A DNA stretch of 64,000 nucleotides from Escherichia phage DCP548, in the sequence record PQ671645.1; one strand, 5' to 3'. Below, piece by piece: positions 42,605 through 56,912 of the stretch (position 1 is its first letter; each line of letters starts with the position of its first letter). Both the position numbers and the translations under genes were made by a program. The notes below the pieces were generated by a model. The model saw only the letters and a list, made by a program, of their open reading frames with translations. It searched no databases and was not told where the DNA came from.

Positions 42605-43186
42605 TTATAACAACCCTGTCAAATCATTCCAATGCTTCCGGCATAATGACACATATCTATCAGTATCACCAATTTCAATTTGACTGCCATCTGTAATTGG
42701 AAGTCCGTCTTCCGTGACTCTAGCTACCATTGTGGCCTTTTTACCACAATGACAGACACCTTTAAGTTCAACAAGCTTATCGGCAATAGCCATTAATGCT
42801 TGAGAACCTTCAAATAGATTACCTTTAAAATCTGTTCGTAGTCCATATGCCATTACCGGCACATTGTATACGTCAACAATACGACTAAGTTGATACACCT
42901 TTTCAGTAGTTAAGAATTGAGCTTCGTCAACAAATACACAATGAATATCCTTTTGTGCTGCAGCCCATTTATAGAATTCAAAGATATCCATGTCTTTTGT
43001 AATTATATTGGCGTCCTGACGAATACCAATACGAGAGACTATTTCACCTTTTGAATCGCGAGTATCAATAGCCGGTTTAAGAACTAATACACCCATGCCA
43101 CGTTCTTTATAGTTATGTGCGGCAGTAAGTAATGAAGCAGACTTACCAGCGTTCATAGCGGCATATGTAAAAATTAAACTAGCCAT
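42605..43186 (-). CDS. tk: thymidine kinase
   Basis: 193 aa; MASLIFTYAAMNAGKSASLL..., VFVDEAQF, CHCGKKA zinc motif; matches remembered T4 Tk. Confidence 0.93.
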   Translation of the reverse strand: MASLIFTYAAMNAGKSASLLTAAHNYKERGMGVLVLKPAIDTRDSKGEIVSRIGIRQDANIITKDMDIFEFYKWAAAQKDIHCVFVDEAQFLTTEKVYQLSRIVDVYNVPVMAYGLRTDFKGNLFEGSQALMAIADKLVELKGVCHCGKKATMVARVTEDGLPITDGSQIEIGDTDRYVSLCRKHWNDLTGLL

Positions 43187-50095: not shown

Positions 50096-50554
50096 TTATA
50101 GGATGGTAGTGAGCACCTTATATAATGATTTGCCCATTACATATTCCCACTGAGAAGGTTTAATTAAAGCGAATGCATCAAATTCAGGAATCTGTCGTCC
50201 GTCTGGGAACGTATGATAGGAATTACAAACACTGTTTCTGAATTGCTCGTGCTCTACAGGGATGGTATATAGGAACAGATGAATATTCTTATTGTCTGAG
50301 TAATGATGTTCACCTAGGTCTTTCAGGAAGGCGGGGTCATATTGTGTAAACCCAGTTTCTTCTTCGCATTCACGAATAGCGGCTTCGATAGGAGATTCAC
50401 CGGGCTCGACACGACCTTTAGGAATATCCCAGCGATGAGCTAATGCACCTTTAGGACGAGAACCAGTTACACGCCCCATGAATAATTCTTTATCTTCGGT
50501 AAGGAAAATAATACCAGCTGATAATTCTTTCACTTTATTTTTCTTACTCATCAT
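50096..50554 (-). CDS. nudE: Nudix hydrolase
   Basis: 152 aa; Nudix box GRVEPGESPIEAAIRECEEETGF. Confidence 0.85.
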   Translation of the reverse strand: MMSKKNKVKELSAGIIFLTEDKELFMGRVTGSRPKGALAHRWDIPKGRVEPGESPIEAAIRECEEETGFTQYDPAFLKDLGEHHYSDNKNIHLFLYTIPVEHEQFRNSVCNSYHTFPDGRQIPEFDAFALIKPSQWEYVMGKSLYKVLTTIL

Positions 50555-50795
50555 CTCGGTCCCATGATTTGGCCATTAATTCGGACATAAATTCTTCAAT
50601 GCGCGTTTCTTTAGATGGACTTTCACTATTAGAGACCGCAAGTTTGTAATCTGCAATAGGACAGAACATATCAAGGTCCATATTAAGGTCGTCTTTGATT
50701 TTTTCTTCTGACACATCTTTATCGTATGTGTACAGATAACTATCACATGATTCTGATTTAATGTAAATTGCTATACTCATCTCAAATTCCTGCAT
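50544..50795 (-). CDS. hypothetical acidic protein
   Basis: 83-aa minus ORF. Confidence 0.4.
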   Translation of the reverse strand: MQEFEMSIAIYIKSESCDSYLYTYDKDVSEEKIKDDLNMDLDMFCPIADYKLAVSNSESPSKETRIEEFMSELMAKSWDRDDE

Positions 50796-51268
50796 TCGGT
50801 AATAAAACGTTCAACTTCATTATTCTTGGCTTTTATCTTGTCTTTATGTTCTTGTAAACTACTTTTAATAAGATTAATAATGATGCCTACAGTACCTCCA
50901 CCAATTATACCGCCAATTATACTTACGATAGTAGATGCTAATAAGATAGCAATAATATCAACAAAACCGAAAGAACTCACCTTAGTACTAAAAAACCACA
51001 CTGATGGTACAAATATAATCCATCCTGTTATCCATTGACACTTATTGAAAAACTTTTCAAGCTCAGCTTGAGTTGTTCGTATTACTTCATCGATAGGTTG
51101 ATAACCATTAATATGTCTGTTCACGATAATACCTGCTGGCTGGTCGATTTTAAATTCTTGGCAAATACGTTTCACTAAGTAGGATGGACATCCTGTCCAA
51201 TCCACTGAATAGTACGAAATACCTTCATTGCCGTCGTCAATATTAGACCAATATGTTTTGTTAATCAT
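50777..51268 (-). CDS. membrane protein
   Basis: 163 aa; Gly/Ile-rich TM segments near C-terminus. Confidence 0.45.
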   Translation of the reverse strand: MINKTYWSNIDDGNEGISYYSVDWTGCPSYLVKRICQEFKIDQPAGIIVNRHINGYQPIDEVIRTTQAELEKFFNKCQWITGWIIFVPSVWFFSTKVSSFGFVDIIAILLASTIVSIIGGIIGGGTVGIIINLIKSSLQEHKDKIKAKNNEVERFITECRNLR

Positions 51269-51981
51269 TACCAGCCTTCCATAGGGAATTCCAGATAAAC
51301 TTGAGCGTTGACACGAATTTCGTTGGTAATCTTTTTAACTCGGTCTGTATTACGAGATACACGTCCGAACCAACGCCATCCATTACTAATTGCACGAGAA
51401 CCAGTGTGCCATGTTTGCCAATCAAACTGAAGAAGAGTACGGTCTGGAGCTTCCCATTTCTCTAGTTCGCCTTTTTCGATTTTTTCGAGGACTTCTTTGT
51501 GCCACTGGCGATAGATAAGTTCGCCATCAGGAATCTGACTGAACTCTGCAGTTCCTGTTGCAAAATGAGTAGGACACACATCAGCGTTAACAAGACCAAG
51601 AATATGTTCAGAATGGTAACGAGGGTTGTCATAATCAGGTTGTCCTGCAGTAATAAAGTGTTGACCAACCGGAATATCCGGGCGTGGTACATCATCATGG
51701 TGATAACCTGGGATAGCAGGGTACCAACCGGGCATCAGCATGTGGACTCGTGAATCAAATACAACCTGGTCGGTGTTCCAATCATCAGGCAAGTTCATGA
51801 TGAAGCTGCGAGTAATAGGACCACCGTTATTATAAGCAAATTCTAAACTACAGTTGAAGAACATAGGCTCGTTTTTAATCTGGTCATTTTTAATCGCATG
51901 AGCAAAACCACCTACTGCACGAGCTTGACTATTAAACACTTTAGAACTATTCATATTATTTTCCTCGACATTCTTTAACAA
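51268..51981 (-). CDS. hypothetical protein
   Basis: 237-aa minus ORF; His/Asp-rich stretch GYHHDDVP. Confidence 0.45.
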   Translation of the reverse strand: MLKNVEENNMNSSKVFNSQARAVGGFAHAIKNDQIKNEPMFFNCSLEFAYNNGGPITRSFIMNLPDDWNTDQVVFDSRVHMLMPGWYPAIPGYHHDDVPRPDIPVGQHFITAGQPDYDNPRYHSEHILGLVNADVCPTHFATGTAEFSQIPDGELIYRQWHKEVLEKIEKGELEKWEAPDRTLLQFDWQTWHTGSRAISNGWRWFGRVSRNTDRVKKITNEIRVNAQVYLEFPMEGW

Positions 51982-52261
51982 AATTTTCTAAATCTGTTGA
52001 TTCAATAGCTTTTTTACGAGCTTCAGCGTGTTCTTCTTCAGTTAATCTACGTTTAAACTTGACCCAAACATTATGGTCGAAACCTGTTGTCGCGTATAAT
52101 AACAGAGCACCAACGAATAACAAAAACGGTGATAAAAATACACAACCAGGAACACCGTCCATGCCATAGGCCTTTTGTAATACTGCAACAGAAAGCACAG
52201 CATAAAAAGGTGATGTAAGTATCGTTAAAAGGCCAATTCGGTTGGTTTCGGATAATTTCAT
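51956..52261 (-). CDS. membrane protein
   Basis: Track ORF starts at GTG inside the promoter; trimmed to ATG at 52261 (MKLSETNRIG...) with GGAG RBS. Confidence 0.45.
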   Translation of the reverse strand: MKLSETNRIGLLTILTSPFYAVLSVAVLQKAYGMDGVPGCVFLSPFLLFVGALLLYATTGFDHNVWVKFKRRLTEEEHAEARKKAIESTDLENFVKECRGK

Positions 52262-52280
52262 AATATTCTCCTCATGTTTA

Positions 52281-52318
52281 ATAGGACTACTATAACATAG
52301 TCCTATCAGTTTGTACAC
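52281..52318 (-). promoter_or_regulatory. early promoter with inverted repeat
   Basis: Minus GTGTAC, spacer, TATAGT; inverted repeat ATAGGACTA/TAGTCCTAT. Confidence 0.5.
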
Positions 52319-52519
52319 TTATTTTGACATTTCTTCGATGTCACGACGATACCCATCACGAACTTCACGAAGAGCTTCAAGGCCACACATAGGCTCGATA
52401 CCAGTAATGTGAACTTGATTAATCTGATACTCTACATCTTCTAACTGAGCGAAAACATAACGACGTTCTGCTTCACAACCAGGTTTAGCTTTACCGAAAC
52501 GTTTATTCAAAGTAGTCAT
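52319..52519 (-). CDS. hypothetical small protein
   Basis: Track ORF starts at GTG; trimmed to ATG at 52519 (MTTLNKRF...) with GGAG RBS. Confidence 0.4.
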   Translation of the reverse strand: MTTLNKRFGKAKPGCEAERRYVFAQLEDVEYQINQVHITGIEPMCGLEALREVRDGYRRDIEEMSK

Positions 52520-52547
52520 TTTTATATCTCCATTCACTCATTTGTTT

Positions 52548-52587
52548 TGATAGGTCTATAGTATCAACAACTACAGACCTTGTAAAC
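52548..52587 (-). promoter_or_regulatory. early promoter with inverted repeat
   Basis: Minus GTTTAC at 52587..52582; inverted repeat GGTCTATAGT/ACTACAGACC. Confidence 0.5.
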
Positions 52588-52599
52588 TGTTTTGTGAAA

Positions 52600-53556
52600 T
52601 TATTTGAAAGGTTTTACCATATGAAAGTTTTGTTTGAAACGCTTGACGTAATCGTCGTGTCCTAAGCTTTGGTACATACTTACTACTTTGCTATAATTTT
52701 CCCAAGCGAACTCACGGAACCATCCTGATGTGATTGATGTACAGACCTTTTCAAGGGCCATCATAAAACTATCACGTGGATGGATTTTAAAGTCGTTAGG
52801 AATCTGTGAACGTTCAAGAGCTAATACACAAGCTTCTTCATATACACCGGCTAATTTGACCATTTCTGGTAACGATTCGAACTTCTCGCGTGAGGTCATG
52901 ACTTCAGAACCGTCTTTCATATAAAATGTATACGCTGGACGGTCTGTTAGTGCAATGGCTTCATGAATAGTATCATGGTCATACGTATAGATGTCATCTT
53001 TAAAGAACGCACTTTTAGAAGTGTCAAGAACTGGGTGAGCATAGTTCAAGGTTTCTTTCTGGCGTTTTAGCATAATTTCAGTAAGTTCATCGTTCAGTGT
53101 AACACCTTTACCACGAAGATACTGAATATGGTTCATAGTCTTTAAAAAGAATGGATTATTTTTCTTGAAACGATGAGACATCTTAATTGCAAGACATATC
53201 TCAGGAGTTGCCCAATAAAACCCGTTCAAACGGTCTTTAGACAAATTTTTCTTGGCGTATTTTAAAAGGTCATAAGAAGACGTGAAATCTTCAGGAGTGA
53301 GTTCACCGACTAATTCACGGACATTAGTGATTGCCGGAACAATATATGCTTCAAAATGAGTTTCGCGTCCATTATGGAAGCATTTGAAAACTTGGACATC
53401 AGGGTTATCTTGATGAACATATACACCCATCATTTGATTTTTGAATGCATTCCAAGAACCTTGGTCCGCAATAAAGTCCCAATCGCTATTTTTGATAGCG
53501 CTAGAATCAATAAGACCATGATAGTGAAGTGCACGAGAACCAATAACTAACATCAT
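52600..53556 (-). CDS. hypothetical protein, possible nucleotidyltransferase fold
   Basis: 318 aa; N-terminal LVIGSRALHYHG...SDWDF resembles GS ... DxD. Confidence 0.4.
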   Translation of the reverse strand: MMLVIGSRALHYHGLIDSSAIKNSDWDFIADQGSWNAFKNQMMGVYVHQDNPDVQVFKCFHNGRETHFEAYIVPAITNVRELVGELTPEDFTSSYDLLKYAKKNLSKDRLNGFYWATPEICLAIKMSHRFKKNNPFFLKTMNHIQYLRGKGVTLNDELTEIMLKRQKETLNYAHPVLDTSKSAFFKDDIYTYDHDTIHEAIALTDRPAYTFYMKDGSEVMTSREKFESLPEMVKLAGVYEEACVLALERSQIPNDFKIHPRDSFMMALEKVCTSITSGWFREFAWENYSKVVSMYQSLGHDDYVKRFKQNFHMVKPFK

Positions 53557-53580
53557 AATATTTTCCTCGGATTAATTAAC

Positions 53581-53832
53581 TTAAATTTCACGACATGCGA
53601 TATTATATTCATCCCAGAGGTCGTCATGTGAAGCCTCTACCAATGGAACGATTGTACCGTTTATGTCTTCATTATAAGGGCAAATTGTACAGTGCGCATC
53701 TTCGAATCGGATGCCTTTGTGTTCAGATTTTTTATAACGCATATCAAATATCTTTGCAAACTTTTCACGAGTAATAGTTTTAGCAACTACTTCGGTTCCG
53801 ATACTTTCGTAATAAATCATTGTAGACTCCAT
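53581..53832 (-). CDS. hypothetical protein
   Basis: 83-aa minus ORF; early promoter upstream. Confidence 0.45.
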   Translation of the reverse strand: MESTMIYYESIGTEVVAKTITREKFAKIFDMRYKKSEHKGIRFEDAHCTICPYNEDINGTIVPLVEASHDDLWDEYNIACREI

Positions 53833-53842
53833 TTAATTTGAT

Positions 53843-53878
53843 AGGGCTACTATAACATAGCCCTATCTTGTTGTAAAC
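53843..53878 (-). promoter_or_regulatory. early promoter with inverted repeat
   Basis: Minus GTTTAC at 53878..53873; inverted repeat ATAGGGCT/AGCCCTAT. Confidence 0.5.
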
Positions 53879-53882
53879 TGTT

Positions 53883-54080
53883 TTAGCAAGAATAACTAGA
53901 TGATACCCAGCCTTGAACAGTAATACTATTATTTGATAACGAGATTGCGTCCTGGAGATTCAGACCCGCATTATCTTCAATCCACAATGTAACTTCTTCA
54001 CGCTCTTCGGTTGCAATCTGGAACAGGTTTTCCAGGGCAGCTACTGCCGTACGTACAGCACAATCTAATTCACGAGACAT
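53883..54080 (-). CDS. small protein, WVSSSxxC-terminus family
   Basis: 65 aa ending ...QGWVSSSYSC. Confidence 0.45.
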   Translation of the reverse strand: MSRELDCAVRTAVAALENLFQIATEEREEVTLWIEDNAGLNLQDAISLSNNSITVQGWVSSSYSC

Positions 54081-54089
54081 ATGATTTCC

Positions 54090-54362
54090 TTAACAAGTGT
54101 GAGAAGATGCAACCCAACCACCATCTTCAAGGCTCAAGTTGTAGTCGTATTGGTAAACGTCAGCCCATTCAGCATAACCGTTTTTTGTACAACGTTCAAG
54201 ATCGGCTTTAAGATGTCCTGGTGAATGATAGGTTCCACCCATGCCATAAGCTGGATACAAGTCGAATGTTGTGTTTTGTTTATCAGCAATTTCTTTGGCA
54301 GCCTCAATAGCTGCATAGATTTTTGCTACGGCTTCAGCCAGTTCGGTTTGTTCTTTAGACAT
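54090..54362 (-). CDS. small protein, WVSSSxxC-terminus family
   Basis: 90 aa ending ...DGGWVASSHTC. Confidence 0.45.
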   Translation of the reverse strand: MSKEQTELAEAVAKIYAAIEAAKEIADKQNTTFDLYPAYGMGGTYHSPGHLKADLERCTKNGYAEWADVYQYDYNLSLEDGGWVASSHTC

Positions 54363-54371
54363 AATGATTCC

Positions 54372-54677
54372 TTAGCACAACGCAGAAGACGAAACCCAAG
54401 CACCTTCAGTAATAATGTAACCATTACCTTCACGCTTAACATCGCCACCATTATTTTCAATTTCATCTTTCATCCACTGGGATACGATTTCACCCTTAGG
54501 ATAATAAGTACGACCACTACCATAATCACCTACAGAAAATGATACGGCATATTGGTCTGCGATCTTTGTTGCTTCTTCTTCGATACGTTCAGCTTGATTC
54601 AGAAGTTTATAAATTGCATCTGAAGCGGATTTGGCATCATTAAACTCTGGTACTTTAATTTCAATAATCTTACTCAT
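54372..54677 (-). CDS. small protein, WVSSSxxC-terminus family
   Basis: Ends ...EGAWVSSSALC; trimmed to ATG at 54677 (MSKIIEIK...), matching the MS(K/R) starts of its two paralogs. Confidence 0.45.
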   Translation of the reverse strand: MSKIIEIKVPEFNDAKSASDAIYKLLNQAERIEEEATKIADQYAVSFSVGDYGSGRTYYPKGEIVSQWMKDEIENNGGDVKREGNGYIITEGAWVSSSALC

Positions 54678-55032
54678 TTCTACATTCCTTAATAAAGTTT
54701 TCGATTGTTTCATTTTCACGTCTAGCTAGGAGTTCATTATAACTAATCATTTGAGAAGCGTAAACCTTTTTATTTTTCTTGTTATGGTTTATAAAATCGT
54801 AGTAAAAATAGACTACAGTACAAAAGGATGCGATGGATGCAAAGGCTTGGGTATACCTTAAGTCCTGCCATTGGTCTGTGAATCCACCAGTGTTCCCTAT
54901 AAATCCTAACACAACGCCGTCAATAAGAAATCCAACTAATCCAAAGGCAAATCCCATGCCAATACTCATAATAAAAATTAGAATGTTCTCACCAAGAGAA
55001 GGCCATACGGTTAAGAGTTGAGGCTTTTGCAT
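54670..55032 (-). CDS. membrane protein
   Basis: 120 aa; two TM segments; C-terminal ...FIKECRNE. Confidence 0.45.
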   Translation of the reverse strand: MQKPQLLTVWPSLGENILIFIMSIGMGFAFGLVGFLIDGVVLGFIGNTGGFTDQWQDLRYTQAFASIASFCTVVYFYYDFINHNKKNKKVYASQMISYNELLARRENETIENFIKECRNE

Positions 55033-55436
55033 CTTATTTCCTTAACAAATTCCATAGCTTCTTCATATTCATACTTTTTAACAGCTTCATCATACTGAGC
55101 TTGGGCTTTTGCGCACTGAACTTTCCATTCTCTTAATCGGGCTCTGTGATGACGTCCTTGGTACCAATATCCCACCCAGTTAATAGGCATTAATAAAAAC
55201 GGTACAATAAGTGGTGCGACGAACATTAATGAAAATGCTGCATCAGACGATATAACTTTATTGGAATCTAAAATAGCTCCTATAATCATAAAGATTAAAA
55301 ATGCTAAAGCTAAAATAGGACCAAACAACACTTCATTAGGAATTAATTTACGTTTGTATTCGTATGCCCAGGGCTTAATTGGCATGTATAGGGTTGGCTT
55401 TGACATATTCTCTACATTCCATAATAAATTGCTCAA
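55011..55436 (-). CDS. membrane protein (start uncertain)
   Basis: 141-aa track ORF; N-terminus overlaps upstream gene; C-terminal ...FVKEIRCKS resembles neighbours ending FIKECRNE and FVKECRGK. Confidence 0.4.
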   Translation of the reverse strand: MSNLLWNVENMSKPTLYMPIKPWAYEYKRKLIPNEVLFGPILALAFLIFMIIGAILDSNKVISSDAAFSLMFVAPLIVPFLLMPINWVGYWYQGRHHRARLREWKVQCAKAQAQYDEAVKKYEYEEAMEFVKEIRCKSLNS

Positions 55437-55992
55437 GGATTAAATTGTTAGTGAAATTAGGACTAACAACCATGGTTTCATAAAGCGCATCAATAGCACT
55501 TAAAGCATCAACTCTCTTAAGCAAAGGCTTGCCTTCATACATAGTTTCAGAATCGACGATTAAAGTGAAGTAGTATTTTTTATTATTGACCAGAACTTCT
55601 GTATCAATATAAAACATGTTAGACCTTAAAAGCTTGTCTCTAAAGCCTACGTAATCATCTGAACGTTCACTGATATAGTCCCATTCAGTGTTTAAACAAC
55701 AAACAGACCATGTAGGAGCAACGAAATCAGTGAATCTAATATCATGGTCTGCAACTAGTTTAGCAATAGCTCCGATATCATGAATCATAATACCTGGGGC
55801 TAATAAAGATTTTCGGTTATTTGCATATTCAGTTGTCTCATAAGAAGACGACCAGTACCATTTACGTCCAGTTGCAACATATCGTAATGAATCAACTAAA
55901 GACGTAGGTGGATTTACCTTATCTCGGAACTCTTCGAACATTGAGTCAATATCATTATTTTGGTTTCGCATGTTAACTCCTTTATTATCCAA
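55375..55992 (-). CDS. hypothetical protein
   Basis: 205-aa minus ORF ending ...FIMECREY. Confidence 0.45.
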   Translation of the reverse strand: MDNKGVNMRNQNNDIDSMFEEFRDKVNPPTSLVDSLRYVATGRKWYWSSSYETTEYANNRKSLLAPGIMIHDIGAIAKLVADHDIRFTDFVAPTWSVCCLNTEWDYISERSDDYVGFRDKLLRSNMFYIDTEVLVNNKKYYFTLIVDSETMYEGKPLLKRVDALSAIDALYETMVVSPNFTNNLILEQFIMECREYVKANPIHAN

Positions 55993-56020
55993 AAGGAGGA
56001 CCGGAGTCCTCCGTATTATT

Positions 56021-56614
56021 TTATTTCAAAGAGTTAATATATTCTTGTACATCAGCAGAAGTGGTTTCGACACCAGCCGGAGTGCCATTGAACGTTTCAA
56101 CACGAGTCAGAGTGTCTTCGATATCAACCTTAGTCAGTGCAGCGATTTCAATTACATCATCAGCCGTAGAGATACCAAGGGCATTGGCTGCTCGAGTTTC
56201 ACGAATGTATTCGAGTTTGATTGCCAGATTCTGACGAGCATCATCAAGTTCAACCACCTTACGAGCAATTTCAATTCGCATAGCGGCATACCCGTCAGCT
56301 TTTGTATTAAGTTGTTCGGCAGTTCGACGATACAGAAGACCAAGCTTAGCATGCATGGTAACATCTTGTCCTTCAGCCAGGAGCTTACGAATTTCACGTT
56401 CCTTAGAAGCGGCTTGCTTGTTCTTTTCATTAACAAGTTCGCGAATACGTTTTTCTTCATTAATAGATTTAACAGAAGCCGTTTTTAGTTCTTTGATTTG
56501 GGTAATCAACTTATCTGCAGCTGCGTTATACTGTTCTTCGACAGTCAGATTTTTAGCCATAGCAGTACCCAGTTTAGTGCGGATGAATTCAACAAGTTTT
56601 TTCAGTGTGTTCAT
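56021..56614 (-). CDS. hypothetical coiled-coil protein
   Basis: Track ORF trimmed to ATG at 56614 ([10 protein letters not shown]...); promoter cassette copy B upstream. Confidence 0.45.
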
Positions 56615-56636
56615 ATTATTACCTTTCAATTGGTGG

Positions 56637-56684
56637 TTTATTATCCAATGAGAGCATTATACTCTGCTCTCAAGAGTTTGTAAA
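56637..56684 (-). repeat. promoter cassette copy B (about 46 bp, near-identical to 25931..25980)
   Basis: ttattatccaatgagagcattatactctgctctcaagagttt; minus ATTTAC, 18 nt, TATAAT. Confidence 0.6.
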
Positions 56685-56912
56685 TTATTTTTTAATCAAA
56701 TTGACATAAAACTCGGCGTCTTCCGGGTGCATGCCTTCACAGTATTCTTCAACCATGAACTTCTTAACAGCTTCATAAGGACCACTCAGATTAAGCTCAG
56801 TTGTCCAGAACTTGGAATCTTGGACTGAATCGATACGAACTTCAGGGTGTCGGTTGCGAATAACTTCTTCGGTGTATTCATAATCAACGACATCAATACT
56901 AACTTTAGCCAT
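56685..56912 (-). CDS. hypothetical protein
   Basis: 75-aa minus ORF. Confidence 0.45.
   Translation of the reverse strand: MAKVSIDVVDYEYTEEVIRNRHPEVRIDSVQDSKFWTTELNLSGPYEAVKKFMVEEYCEGMHPEDAEFYVNLIKK

What the first reader, a model, noticed from the sequence alone, without database searches (positions are those of the whole stretch)
54670..55992. Neighbouring genes share a C-terminal (F)(I/V)KECR tail
Three consecutive minus ORFs here end in ...FIKECRNE, ...FVKEIRCKS and ...FIMECREY, and ORF 51956..52261 ends in ...FVKECRGK, although their bodies differ (two are membrane proteins). It looks like another small module family in this accessory block.
Basis: seen in the sequence. Interest (0 to 1): 0.4.

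Follow-up and report, generated by a model that had tools for sequence, protein, structure and literature searches.

The report
Shared C-terminal peptide, T4-like early proteins
Five neighbouring early genes of this T4-like (RB69-type) phage, most of them small membrane proteins, end in the same short peptide (..F-I/V-x-E-C-R..), which selection on the protein has kept across many T4-like genera, so these uncharacterised genes probably share a partner or work together.

Summary
F[IV]xECR occurs 4 times in all six frames of the 64 kb window (0.05 expected).

The window is a Mosigvirus. The tail generalises to hydrophobic-x-x-[F/W]-[I/V/L]-x-x-C-[R/K]. It is kept in the same gene families in T4, VR26, Klebsiella phages Marfa and KPV15, and Pectobacterium phage PM2. 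In the whole T4 genome it occurs only in e.2-e.5.

In the e.2 and e.5 families (18-30% identity) F/I, C and R are among the few invariant residues. Their codons vary freely: Cys TGT 26/TGC 25, and six Arg codons. The next gene's Shine-Dalgarno and ATG sit in different registers. Selection is therefore on the peptide, not on a DNA repeat or a ribosome-binding site.

Profile comparison shows e.3 and e.4 are full-length paralogues. e.2, e.5 and 133c share only the tail with them.

One T4-like contig lost e.2 by a crossover inside two tails.

Function is unknown. My best inference is a common docking or assembly helix at the cytoplasmic face of the inner membrane.

The parts
55375..55971 (-). e.5 homologue: soluble protein of 198 aa (an alternative TTG start lies at 55992). 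The tail motif FIMECR lies in its last predicted helix, and the e.4 start overlaps its last 11 codons.
   Evidence: phrog_2607; AF2 helix 177-192; invariant F182, C186, R187 in a family at 18-48% identity
55411..55428 (-). 18 nt encoding F-I-M-E-C-R of e.5
   Evidence: repeat family D3
55011..55406 (-). e.4 homologue: two-TM membrane protein of 131 aa counted from ATG 55406 (MSKPT..). Public Mosigvirus records start it 7 codons later. Its tail is the variant FVKEIR-C.
   Evidence: (phrog_2604)
55029..55049 (-). 21 nt encoding F-V-K-E-I-R-C of e.4. The AAGGAA of the K-E codons is the Shine-Dalgarno of e.3, and the ATG of e.3 spans the R-C codons (AGA TGC).
54670..55032 (-). e.3 homologue: two-TM membrane protein of 120 aa, paralogue of e.4, ending in tail FIKECRNE*.
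   Evidence: (phrog_2330)
54679..54696 (-). 18 nt encoding F-I-K-E-C-R of e.3. AAGGA is the Shine-Dalgarno, and the ATG of the next gene (MSKIIEIK, 54677) overlaps the N-E-stop codons.
51956..52261 (-). RB69ORF133c-like two-TM membrane protein of 101 aa, found only in Mosigvirus-type phages, ending in tail FVKECRGK*.
   Evidence: (phrog_9798)
51965..51982 (-). 18 nt encoding F-V-K-E-C-R of 133c. Here the next gene's Shine-Dalgarno (GAGGA) comes from the R-G codons after the motif, and its ATG is at 51954.
50777..51268 (-). e.2 homologue of 163 aa: an N-terminal soluble domain, two TM segments, and tail FITECRNLR*.
   Evidence: (phrog_2203)
50789..50806 (-). 18 nt encoding F-I-T-E-C-R of e.2. 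The next gene's Shine-Dalgarno (AGGA) comes from the C-R-N codons, and its ATG (MSIAIY) is at 50780.

Best explanation
Shown. The window is an RB69-type T4-like phage (Mosigvirus). Five early genes of its e.6-to-nudE block (e.5, e.4, e.3, a 133c-like gene and e.2) end in one short peptide: hydrophobic-x-x-[F/W]-[I/V/L]-x-x-C-[R/K]. In this phage it reads F-I/V-x-E-C-R. In the e.4 family the Cys is replaced by I/S/V/M.

In the four membrane proteins the peptide closes a long, charged cytoplasmic helix that follows a two-TM hairpin. In the soluble e.5 it lies in the last helix. Selection on the amino acids preserves the peptide. It is neither a DNA repeat nor a by-product of the next gene's ribosome-binding site. 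It is confined to this one gene block in T4-like phages.

e.3 and e.4 are tandem paralogues. e.2, e.5 and 133c share only the tail with them.

Inferred. The tail is a common docking or assembly helix. The hydrophobic stripe (positions -3, 0, +1, +4) with the flanking Arg sits at the tip of a membrane-anchored stalk. Through it these co-transcribed, translationally coupled proteins bind one shared partner, or bundle with each other, at the inner face of the cytoplasmic membrane early in infection.

Two secondary consequences are shown. (a) The Shine-Dalgarno and start codon of the following gene are written into or just after the tail, using the free positions and synonymous choices. (b) As the only DNA similarity between neighbours, the tails occasionally act as crossover points that delete or swap genes.
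For: Non-randomness and locality. 4 exact hits against 0.05 expected. 5 of 58 tight junctions carry the tail, all in one block. In the whole T4 genome only e.5, e.3, the e.2 remnant and the e.4 variant have it near an ORF end. An exact DNA-pattern scan of IMG/VR for FIKxCRK-stop found real genes only in ~120-171 kb T4-like contigs (plus one 3.6-kb Mosigvirus-like fragment); the other hits lay in ORFs of 35 codons or fewer.

Protein-level selection.
- e.2 family, 12 sequences at 26-29% identity: the invariant columns are I2, W7, D11, G16, W24, I156, C159, R160.
- e.5 family, 7 sequences at 18-48% identity: invariant M1, N94, F182, C186, R187.
- e.4 family: invariant F120, K122, R125.
- Codons at the conserved residues vary freely over 51 unique instances: Cys TGT 26/TGC 25; Arg AGA 14, CGT 14, AGG 11, CGC 5, CGA 4, CGG 1; Phe TTT 40/TTC 8.

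Independence from the translation start. The Shine-Dalgarno is in the K-E codons (e.3, e.4), the C-R-N codons (e.2, T4 e.3), the R-G codons (133c), or 15-20 nt after the motif (VR26 e.5). The distance from motif to next ATG is broadly distributed. The tail is present where the next gene has its own intergenic Shine-Dalgarno or is 30 nt away (PM2 88-aa gene, KPV15 102-aa gene).

Module on different bodies. The five proteins fall in five different PHROGs and have no Pfam match. hhalign gives: e.3 vs e.4 full length, 96.7%; e.3 vs e.2 only 22 columns; e.5 vs e.2 15 columns; 133c vs e.3 19 columns.

Helical context. AF2 of e.2 gives one helix, 103-161, running from TM2 through the tail at pLDDT about 70-76. 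In e.5 the motif is in helix 177-192. The helical hydrophobic moment is 0.42-0.63.

Co-expression. e.5, e.4 and e.3 overlap each other by 22-32 nt with no terminator between them.

Recombination. Contig L012 lacks e.2 through a crossover inside TGCAGGAAA, which the e.3 and e.2 tails share.
Against: No partner or complex has been shown, so the docking or assembly role is inference from conservation pattern, position and predicted helix only. The AF2 models are mediocre: e.5 has pLDDT 59 and e.2 has pTM 0.30.

The near-invariance of a Cys-Arg pair is more specific than a simple amphipathic docking helix needs, and could point to chemistry (a reactive thiol, metal binding or a modification site). 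Against that, the e.4 family does without the Cys.

Part of the motif in this phage, the K-E dipeptide, is what an AAGGAA Shine-Dalgarno reads as. The e.4 Cys in RCKS is forced by the overlapping ATG of e.3. Nucleic-acid constraints therefore contribute to the exact local wording.
Confidence: 0.5

Rival explanations
1. By-product of the embedded translation-initiation region. The tails look alike because each one contains the Shine-Dalgarno, spacer and ATG of the tightly packed downstream gene, read in the upstream frame.
For: In every copy in the window the next gene's Shine-Dalgarno lies inside or right after the motif, and its ATG follows within about 1-10 nt. AAG GAA (K-E) is the Shine-Dalgarno for e.3 and e.4. 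The Cys of e.4 (AGA TGC) is forced by the e.3 start codon.
Against: The Shine-Dalgarno sits in at least four different registers relative to the motif. F, C and R are kept with free synonymous variation, including AGR-to-CGN Arg switches. 53 other tight junctions in the window, and the rest of the T4 genome, lack the tail. The tail persists where the next gene has a separate intergenic Shine-Dalgarno or is 30 nt away.
Confidence: 0.07
2. Recombination linker. The tail-coding DNA is a boundary sequence whose main role is to give homology for shuffling, inserting and deleting gene cassettes in this hyperplastic region. It would be a coding analogue of the PeSL cassettes.
For: An 18-nt direct repeat is present in 3 copies at 83-94% identity. 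L012 lost e.2 by a crossover within the two tails. Gene content between e.3 and e.2 differs greatly between T4, Mosigvirus, VR26, Marfa, PM2 and KPV15.
Against: The homology is only 9-18 nt. Nucleotide identity is no higher than the shared amino acids and AT-rich codon bias would give. Between genera the DNA diverges (TGT/TGC, AGA/CGT) while the residues stay the same. Other rearrangements (L006, L021) do not use the tails. Genuine PeSL-like hairpin-promoter repeats exist elsewhere in the block, at 52277-52324 and 53837-53884.
Confidence: 0.1
3. Pure ancestry. All tail-bearing genes descend from one tandemly duplicated small membrane-protein gene, and e.5 captured the 3' end of a lost copy. 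The tail is simply the slowest-diverging remnant, with no role common to the proteins.
For: e.3 and e.4 are full-length paralogues. PM2 has three such genes in tandem. 133c aligns with e.2 over TM2, stalk and tail. e.3 and e.4 also share the N-terminal M-x-K-P.
Against: Drift cannot explain why F, C and R are the invariant residues of families at 18-30% identity with unrelated bodies. Nor can it explain soluble proteins with other folds carrying the tail: e.5, the 95-aa Marfa gene and the 102-aa KPV15 gene.
Confidence: 0.1
4. Chemistry rather than docking. The Cys-Arg pair is a reactive or ligand-binding site: a thiolate stabilised by Arg, a joint metal or cofactor site formed by several tails, or a target for modification such as ADP-ribosylation by the phage Alt/Mod enzymes.
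For: Cys and Arg are invariant in the e.2 and e.5 families and nearly so in e.3. The genes sit next to nudE, whose annotation in the T4 record names ADP-ribose among its substrates.
Against: The e.4 family replaces Cys by I/S/V/M, and one PM2 e.3-like copy has Ala. That fits a hydrophobic helix position better than an essential thiol. No catalytic fold or second ligand residue is apparent.
Confidence: 0.1
5. Cis-acting nascent peptide. The last residues act inside the ribosome exit tunnel at termination to tune termination-reinitiation on the overlapping downstream start.
For: The motif always lies within about 1-22 codons of the stop (21 in the PM2 e.5). Most copies abut an overlapping or adjacent start.
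Against: The distance to the stop varies from 1 to about 22 codons. Some copies have no coupled downstream gene. There is no resemblance to known arrest peptides beyond an aromatic residue and an Arg (my own knowledge).
Confidence: 0.05
6. Chance similarity of short tails.
For: None beyond the shortness of the motif.
Against: 4 observed against 0.05 expected, with a maximum of 1 in 100 shuffles. All copies sit at C-termini within one block. The tail is conserved in orthologues of six or more phage clades.
Confidence: 0.01

Closest known systems
Capsid targeting sequence (CTS, MKTYQEFIAE) of the T4 internal proteins IPI, IPII and IPIII (recalled from my own knowledge of the T4 literature, not tested here)
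   Same: A short conserved terminal peptide carried by otherwise unrelated, polymorphic proteins, encoded right next to this block in T-even phages (ipII and ipIII lie beside e in T4). There is local resemblance: E-F-I-x-E in the CTS against E-F-V-K-E in Mosigvirus e.4.
   Different: The CTS is N-terminal, sits on soluble packaged proteins and is removed by the gp21 protease. The tail here is C-terminal, mostly on two-TM membrane proteins. Its conserved residues are F, C and R, not the I-x-E cleavage site, which is absent in Marfa, PM2 and KPV15.
PeSL promoter-terminator cassettes that mediate modular shuffling in T4-type genomes (PMC2839356, PMC4122927)
   Same: A short repeated sequence at gene boundaries in a hyperplastic region. 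Recombination between copies removes genes, as in the L012 e.2 deletion.
   Different: PeSLs are intergenic stem-loop plus early-promoter DNA elements. The tail is coding, has no hairpin or promoter, and is conserved as amino acids with free synonymous change. PeSL-like repeats occur separately in the block at 52277-52324 and 53837-53884.
C-terminal docking peptides or short linear motifs such as the SSB C-terminal tail, the FtsZ C-terminal peptide and ESCRT-III MIM helices (my own knowledge; a functional analogy only)
   Same: A motif of about 10 residues at the extreme C-terminus, more conserved than the rest of the protein, helical and amphipathic, presented at the end of a linker or stalk.
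   Different: There is no sequence similarity to any of them. No partner is known. Here one motif is shared by several different proteins of one operon-like block, rather than one protein using it to recruit many partners.
Shine-Dalgarno or start signals embedded in the 3' end of the upstream gene (translational coupling in tightly packed phage operons)
   Same: Every tail in the window contains or abuts the next gene's Shine-Dalgarno and ATG. The K-E dipeptide is AAGGAA read in frame.
   Different: The register is not fixed. The conserved positions are not the Shine-Dalgarno-coded ones. 53 other coupled junctions in the window lack the tail.
Small two-TM phage membrane proteins with charged cytoplasmic C-termini, such as class II holins and T4 Imm (my own knowledge)
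   Same: Size of 100-130 aa, a two-TM hairpin, a basic stretch after TM2, a charged C-terminal domain, and location a few genes upstream of the endolysin gene e.
   Different: No sequence or profile match to any holin or Imm family. These are early-block genes. T4's holin is the unrelated gene t. No lysis role has been tested.

Membership tests
Tandem paralogue family (whole-gene common descent) | Profile-profile similarity over the full length of the proteins | tested here: met
   Met for e.3 vs e.4 only: hhalign probability 96.7%, E 4.5e-10, 112 aligned columns including the N-terminal M-x-K-P, both TMs, the basic stretch and the tail.
Tandem paralogue family (whole-gene common descent) | The same full-length similarity for e.2, e.5 and 133c against e.3/e.4 | tested here: not met
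   e.3 vs e.2: 22 columns, tail only. e.4 vs e.2: 19 columns at 56%. e.5 vs e.2: 15 columns. e.5 vs e.3: 43 columns at 56%. 133c vs e.3: 19 columns. 133c vs e.2: 50 columns covering TM2 to the tail, 91.5%.
DNA repeat or PeSL-type mobile regulatory cassette | Intergenic stem-loop followed by an early promoter, with tens of nt of DNA identity between copies | tested here: not met
   The tail repeat is 18 nt, coding, and has no hairpin or promoter at the copies. Synonymous sites vary.
Embedded translation-initiation region as sole cause | Fixed register between the motif and the downstream Shine-Dalgarno/ATG; conservation of nucleotides rather than residues; recurrence at other coupled junctions | tested here: not met
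   At least four registers. Cys TGT/TGC 26/25 and six Arg codons. 5 of 58 junctions in the window, and only e.2-e.5 in all of T4.
T4 capsid targeting sequence | N-terminal position on a soluble packaged protein, followed by a gp21 (L/I)-x-E cleavage site | tested here: not met
   The tail is C-terminal and mostly on two-TM proteins. I-x-E is present in T4, Mosigvirus and VR26 but replaced by I-K-G, I-K-N, I-K-Y and others in Marfa, PM2 and KPV15. Packaging itself is not testable here.
Short linear docking motif / C-terminal interaction helix | A short terminal stretch conserved well above the rest of otherwise divergent or unrelated proteins | tested here: met
   Invariant columns of the e.2, e.4 and e.5 families concentrate in the tail. 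The five proteins fall in five different PHROGs.
Short linear docking motif / C-terminal interaction helix | An accessible helical or disordered context | tested here: inconclusive
   AF2 models the e.2 tail as the end of one long helix, 103-161, at pLDDT about 70-76 but pTM 0.30. In e.5 the tail is helix 177-192 in a model of pLDDT 59. Exposure was not assessed.
Short linear docking motif / C-terminal interaction helix | A defined binding partner | not testable with these tools
   No multimer prediction or interaction data were available.
Known protein families (Pfam, NCBIfam, PDB) | A significant profile match | tested here: not met

The most novel reading that the evidence does not exclude
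The tail marks a previously unrecognised hetero-oligomeric inner-membrane assembly that is conserved across the enterobacterial Tevenvirinae clades sampled here. It would consist of the e.2, e.3 and e.4-type stalks plus soluble e.5. The C-terminal helices would bundle, and their Cys-Arg tips would jointly form a reactive, metal-binding or cofactor-binding centre, or a common site for a phage or host modifying enzyme. This would give a first functional handle on four T4 early genes that have had no assigned role since the genome was sequenced.
Probability: 0.15. Interest if true: 0.7.

Novelty: new member of a known kind. Interest (0 to 1): 0.45.

Why it matters
e.2, e.3, e.4 and e.5 are conserved early genes of T4 and its relatives with no known function. 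They share one selected C-terminal peptide that occurs nowhere else in the T4 genome, which links them functionally. It also gives a small, precise target for experiments: three residues to mutate and a 10-residue peptide to use as bait. That could reveal what this early membrane-associated gene set does during host takeover.

The case is also a clean worked example for annotation. It separates three layers that coincide at phage gene junctions: a protein motif, the embedded ribosome-binding site of the next gene, and microhomology used for gene loss.

Tried and rejected
Chance was rejected by shuffles.

A general translation-initiation artefact was rejected by the junction census, the whole-T4 scan and the codon table.

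A DNA repeat was rejected: only 18 nt are repeated.

A profile of the tails alone could not be searched. The 44-aa version collected only 13 candidates, because the word index needs several shared 5-mers. That search was effectively wasted, apart from revealing the Pfam accessions PF26876 and PF26873, which are absent from the local Pfam copy.

I guessed that the conserved neighbour e.6 is PspA-like and might be the partner. This found no support at sequence level, with no Pfam or PDB profile hits, and was not tested at fold level.

The 'sulfurtransferase' label on e.4 in some GenBank records has no support in Pfam or NCBIfam.

Literature searches by gene name returned only noise. The PeSL paper does not mention coding-end homology.

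The loose-regex hit in thymidine kinase (..YVSLCRKHW.., 42605..43186) is unrelated.

The ..EYNIACREI* tail of ORF 53581..53832 is not conserved in its homologues, so I count it as chance.
Full report
1. What is there.

The window is an RB69-type T4-like phage. The region 50500-56700 is 97% identical to Escherichia phage HY126 and 95-97% identical to many Mosigvirus records. Annotated relatives name the minus-strand genes of the finding e.5 (55375..55971), e.4 (55011..55406) and e.3 (54670..55032). They name ORF 51956..52261 RB69ORF133c-like.

Read from the sequence, the tails are ..LEQFIMECREYVKANPIHAN*..MEFVKEIRCKSLNS*..IENFIKECRNE* and ..LENFVKECRGK*. A fifth gene in the same block, e.2 (50777..51268), ends ..VERFITECRNLR*.

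2. Is it more than chance?

F[IV].ECR matches four times in the six-frame translation of the whole 64 kb. All four are 2-11 residues from the stop of these genes. 100 dinucleotide-preserving shuffles gave a mean of 0.05 matches and never more than 1.

I counted 58 minus-strand junctions where the next ORF starts within 15 nt of, or overlaps, the stop. Only these five carry the tail.

I assembled the whole T4 genome from five fetched pieces. The looser pattern [FW][IVL]..C[RK] lies within 20 residues of the end of an ORF of at least 45 codons only in e.5, e.3 and a remnant of e.2, plus one antisense non-gene hit. The e.4 variant is found with a second pattern. The feature is real and specific to this gene block.

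3. Breadth.

Loci fetched around NudE and e.6 homologues from IMG/VR include several identified phages:
- T4-type contigs.
- Escherichia phage VR26 (L007).
- Klebsiella phage Marfa (L028).
- Pectobacterium phage PM2 (L033).
- Klebsiella phage KPV15 (L034).

In each of them the genes after e.6 end in the same kind of tail:
- e.5-like: FVKECREY, FITECREY, FIKHCREA, FVDQCRAN, FVESCRKS, FIKYCRKR.
- e.4-like: FVKESRC, FIKEVRN, FLKEIRK, FIKNVRRK, FIKNMRGK.
- e.3-like: FVIDCRKIK, FIKECKS, FIDDCRRN.
- e.2-like: FITECRKLK, FIEECRK, WIKGCRK, WVKGCRK, FIKNCRR, FIKSCRK, WIRSCRK.
- Some extra small soluble proteins: FIKYCRGKHVS, FIKQCRRNQNVS, FIAKCRAK.

The general form is hydrophobic-x-x-[F/W]-[I/V/L]-x-x-C-[R/K]. 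The e.4 family puts I/S/V/M at the Cys position.

I scanned IMG/VR for the exact DNA pattern of F-I-K-x-C-R-K-stop overlapping an ATG. It gave 28 hits. Only the five in T4-like contigs lie in or derive from real genes (four in ~120-171-kb contigs and one 3.6-kb fragment; one of the four is a deletion-truncated e.3 remnant). The rest lie in ORFs of 35 codons or fewer, about the number expected by chance.

4. Protein or nucleic acid?

Three lines of evidence point to the peptide.

(a) Invariant residues in distant family members. A HMMER search of 1.84 billion representatives with e.2 returned homologues at 26-35% identity, and every full-length one ends in [FW]-I-[KE]-x-C-R. In a 12-sequence alignment the invariant columns are I2, W7, D11, G16, W24, I156, C159 and R160. 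In seven e.5-family proteins at 18-48% identity the invariant columns are M1, N94, F182, C186 and R187. In e.4 they include F120, K122 and R125.

(b) Free synonymous variation. Over 51 unique instances the codons at the conserved residues vary freely: Cys TGT 26/TGC 25; Arg AGA 14, CGT 14, AGG 11, CGC 5, CGA 4, CGG 1; Phe TTT 40/TTC 8.

(c) No fixed register to the next gene's start. The Shine-Dalgarno and ATG always lie nearby, as expected in these packed operons. But the Shine-Dalgarno is AAGGA in the K-E codons for e.3 and e.4, AGGA in the C-R-N codons for e.2 and T4 e.3, and GAGGA in the R-G codons after the motif for 133c. It is a separate AAGAGG 15 nt downstream in VR26 e.5. It lies in the intergenic spacer, or is absent, for a PM2 88-aa gene and a KPV15 102-aa gene.

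Nucleic-acid constraints do shape the local wording. K-E is AAGGAA read in frame. The Cys in e.4's ..IRCKS is forced by the overlapping ATG of e.3. These constraints do not explain F, C and R.

The DNA repeat that the repeat finder reports is just the 18 coding nucleotides: three copies at 83-94% identity.

5. One family or a shared module?

The five proteins fall into five different PHROGs (2607, 2604, 2330, 9798, 2203). None has a Pfam, NCBIfam or PDB sequence match.

Hydropathy shows two hydrophobic stretches in e.4, e.3, 133c and the C-terminal half of e.2. e.5 has only one marginal stretch, just at the threshold.

Profile-profile comparison gives:
- e.3 and e.4 are full-length paralogues: probability 96.7%, E 4.5e-10, 112 columns. 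TM-rich profiles can inflate such scores, but the alignment also includes the shared N-terminal M-x-K-P and the tail.
- e.2 matches e.3 only over the last 22 columns.
- e.5 matches e.2 over 15 columns.
- 133c matches e.3 over 19 columns, and e.2 over 50 columns covering TM2, stalk and tail.

The picture is a small family of two-TM proteins plus unrelated bodies (e.5, the e.2 N-domain, small soluble proteins), all carrying the same terminal peptide.

133c itself is confined to Mosigvirus-type phages. Its most divergent homologue has the variant FIKECKNVK.

6. Structural context.

AF2 on an 11-sequence e.2 alignment gives mean pLDDT 70.6 and pTM 0.30. It shows a small N-terminal domain, a helix 59-96, and a single helix 103-161 that runs from TM2 through a K/E-rich stalk to the motif.

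On a helix, positions -3, 0, +1 and +4 (L/I, F, I/V, C) fall on one face with the Arg beside it. The helical hydrophobic moments are 0.42-0.63. Replacement of Cys by I/V/M in e.4 fits a hydrophobic contact position.

7. Operon context.

A terminator-like hairpin separates e.6 from e.5 (55995-56012). e.5, e.4 and e.3 then overlap one another by 22-32 nt with no terminator between them.

PeSL-like repeats (a hairpin followed by an early-promoter-like site) lie at 53837-53884 and 52277-52324. The second stands in front of the run of genes 133c, 132c, e.2, 130c, nudE and e. None of the tail copies coincides with a hairpin or promoter.

8. Recombination side-effect.

In the T4-type contig L012 the e.3 tail is joined directly to the e.2-tail/nudE junction. 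The left flank matches e.3 and the right flank matches e.2-nudE. The switch falls within TGCAGGAAA, which both tails share. The tails can therefore serve as microhomology for gene loss.

Other rearrangements do not use them: a 250-bp deletion in e.3 of L006, and loss of e.4 in L021.

9. Explanation.

Shown: a peptide-level, block-specific, widely conserved C-terminal module on co-located early proteins, most of them membrane-anchored with the tail in the cytoplasm. The cytoplasmic location is inferred from the basic residues after TM2, by the positive-inside rule.

Inferred: the tail is a common docking or assembly helix. Through it these proteins bind one partner, or each other, at the inner face of the membrane.

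I put about 0.85 on 'selected protein motif' and about 0.5 on the full statement including the docking or assembly role.

The rivals are scored in the report sections: embedded initiation region, recombination linker, pure ancestry, Cys-Arg chemistry and nascent-peptide control. The first is contradicted by several tests. The others are not excluded, but they explain less.

10. Comparison with known things.

The closest analogue in kind is the N-terminal capsid targeting sequence shared by the polymorphic internal proteins encoded next door. Position, protein type and conserved residues all differ.

PeSL cassettes (PMC2839356, PMC4122927) are the known shuffling elements of these regions. They are intergenic DNA elements and are present separately in this block.

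I found no description of this tail in the searchable literature. Those searches were weak, so I cannot prove it is unreported. I file it as a new member of a known kind: a short terminal motif shared by different proteins.

Noticed in passing
window 53883..54677 (- strand): ORFs 54372..54677, 54090..54362 and 53883..54080: A second tail family. Three tandem small ORFs end in GAWVSSSALC*, GGWVASSHTC* and QGWVSSSYSC*. In VR26, Marfa, PM2 and related loci, 3-6 tandem copies end in W[VI]SSSxxC*, WYPSSC* or WFNSSMSC*. The 54372..54677 ORF hits phrog_899, which has no known function.
   Followed up: no
window 52277-52324 and 53837-53884; a weaker copy near 52539-52586: PeSL-like cassettes: a 10-bp-stem hairpin followed by a T4 early-promoter-like TTTACA/TGTACA-17-TATAGT on the minus strand. 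The two main copies are 81% identical over 48 nt. They lie upstream of the 133c-like gene and of ORF 53581..53832.
   Followed up: partly
L003 (T4 NC_000866) 1992-2152, which is T4 67491-67651: The T4 reference e.2 (102 aa) is truncated relative to the 162-aa e.2 of other Tequatrovirus contigs (L010, L011). The lost C-terminal part, including the tail ..NNFITECRKLK*, survives as a 53-codon ORF in the annotated 'intergenic' gap and overlaps the nudE start. This is either a frameshift pseudogene or a sequence error.
   Followed up: partly
window 55386..55406: Public Mosigvirus records start e.4 at MPIKPW (375 nt). The upstream ATG at 55406 gives MSKPTLYMPIKPW, which matches T4 e.4 (MSKPSLYLPSKPL) and the M-x-K-P N-terminus shared with e.3. 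The annotated start is probably 7 codons too late.
   Followed up: partly
L012 9955-10025; L006 6041-6053; L021 10995-11525: Natural rearrangements in the block. L012 lost e.2 by a crossover within the e.3 and e.2 tails. L006 has a 250-bp deletion that removes the N-terminal half of e.3. L021 lacks e.4, and its e.3-like gene begins MYKPSK, an e.4-like N-terminus.
   Followed up: partly
window 56021..56614 (- strand), e.6: e.6 is 61-88% identical across all clades sampled, far more conserved than its neighbours, and has no Pfam or PDB sequence match. Its sequence looks all-helical and coiled-coil-like to me, but no structure was predicted. My guess that it is PspA-like, and a candidate partner of the tails, was not tested at fold level.
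   Followed up: partly
L014 2093-2467 (Shigella phage JK36) and several other records: e.4 is labelled 'sulfurtransferase' in some GenBank records. Pfam and NCBIfam give no support for this label.
   Followed up: yes
window 52600..53556 (- strand): The 318-aa RB69ORF134c-like protein carries two Pfam domains of unknown function, DUF7277 and DUF7275 (E 1e-27 and 1e-79). It is conserved in all clades sampled.
   Followed up: no
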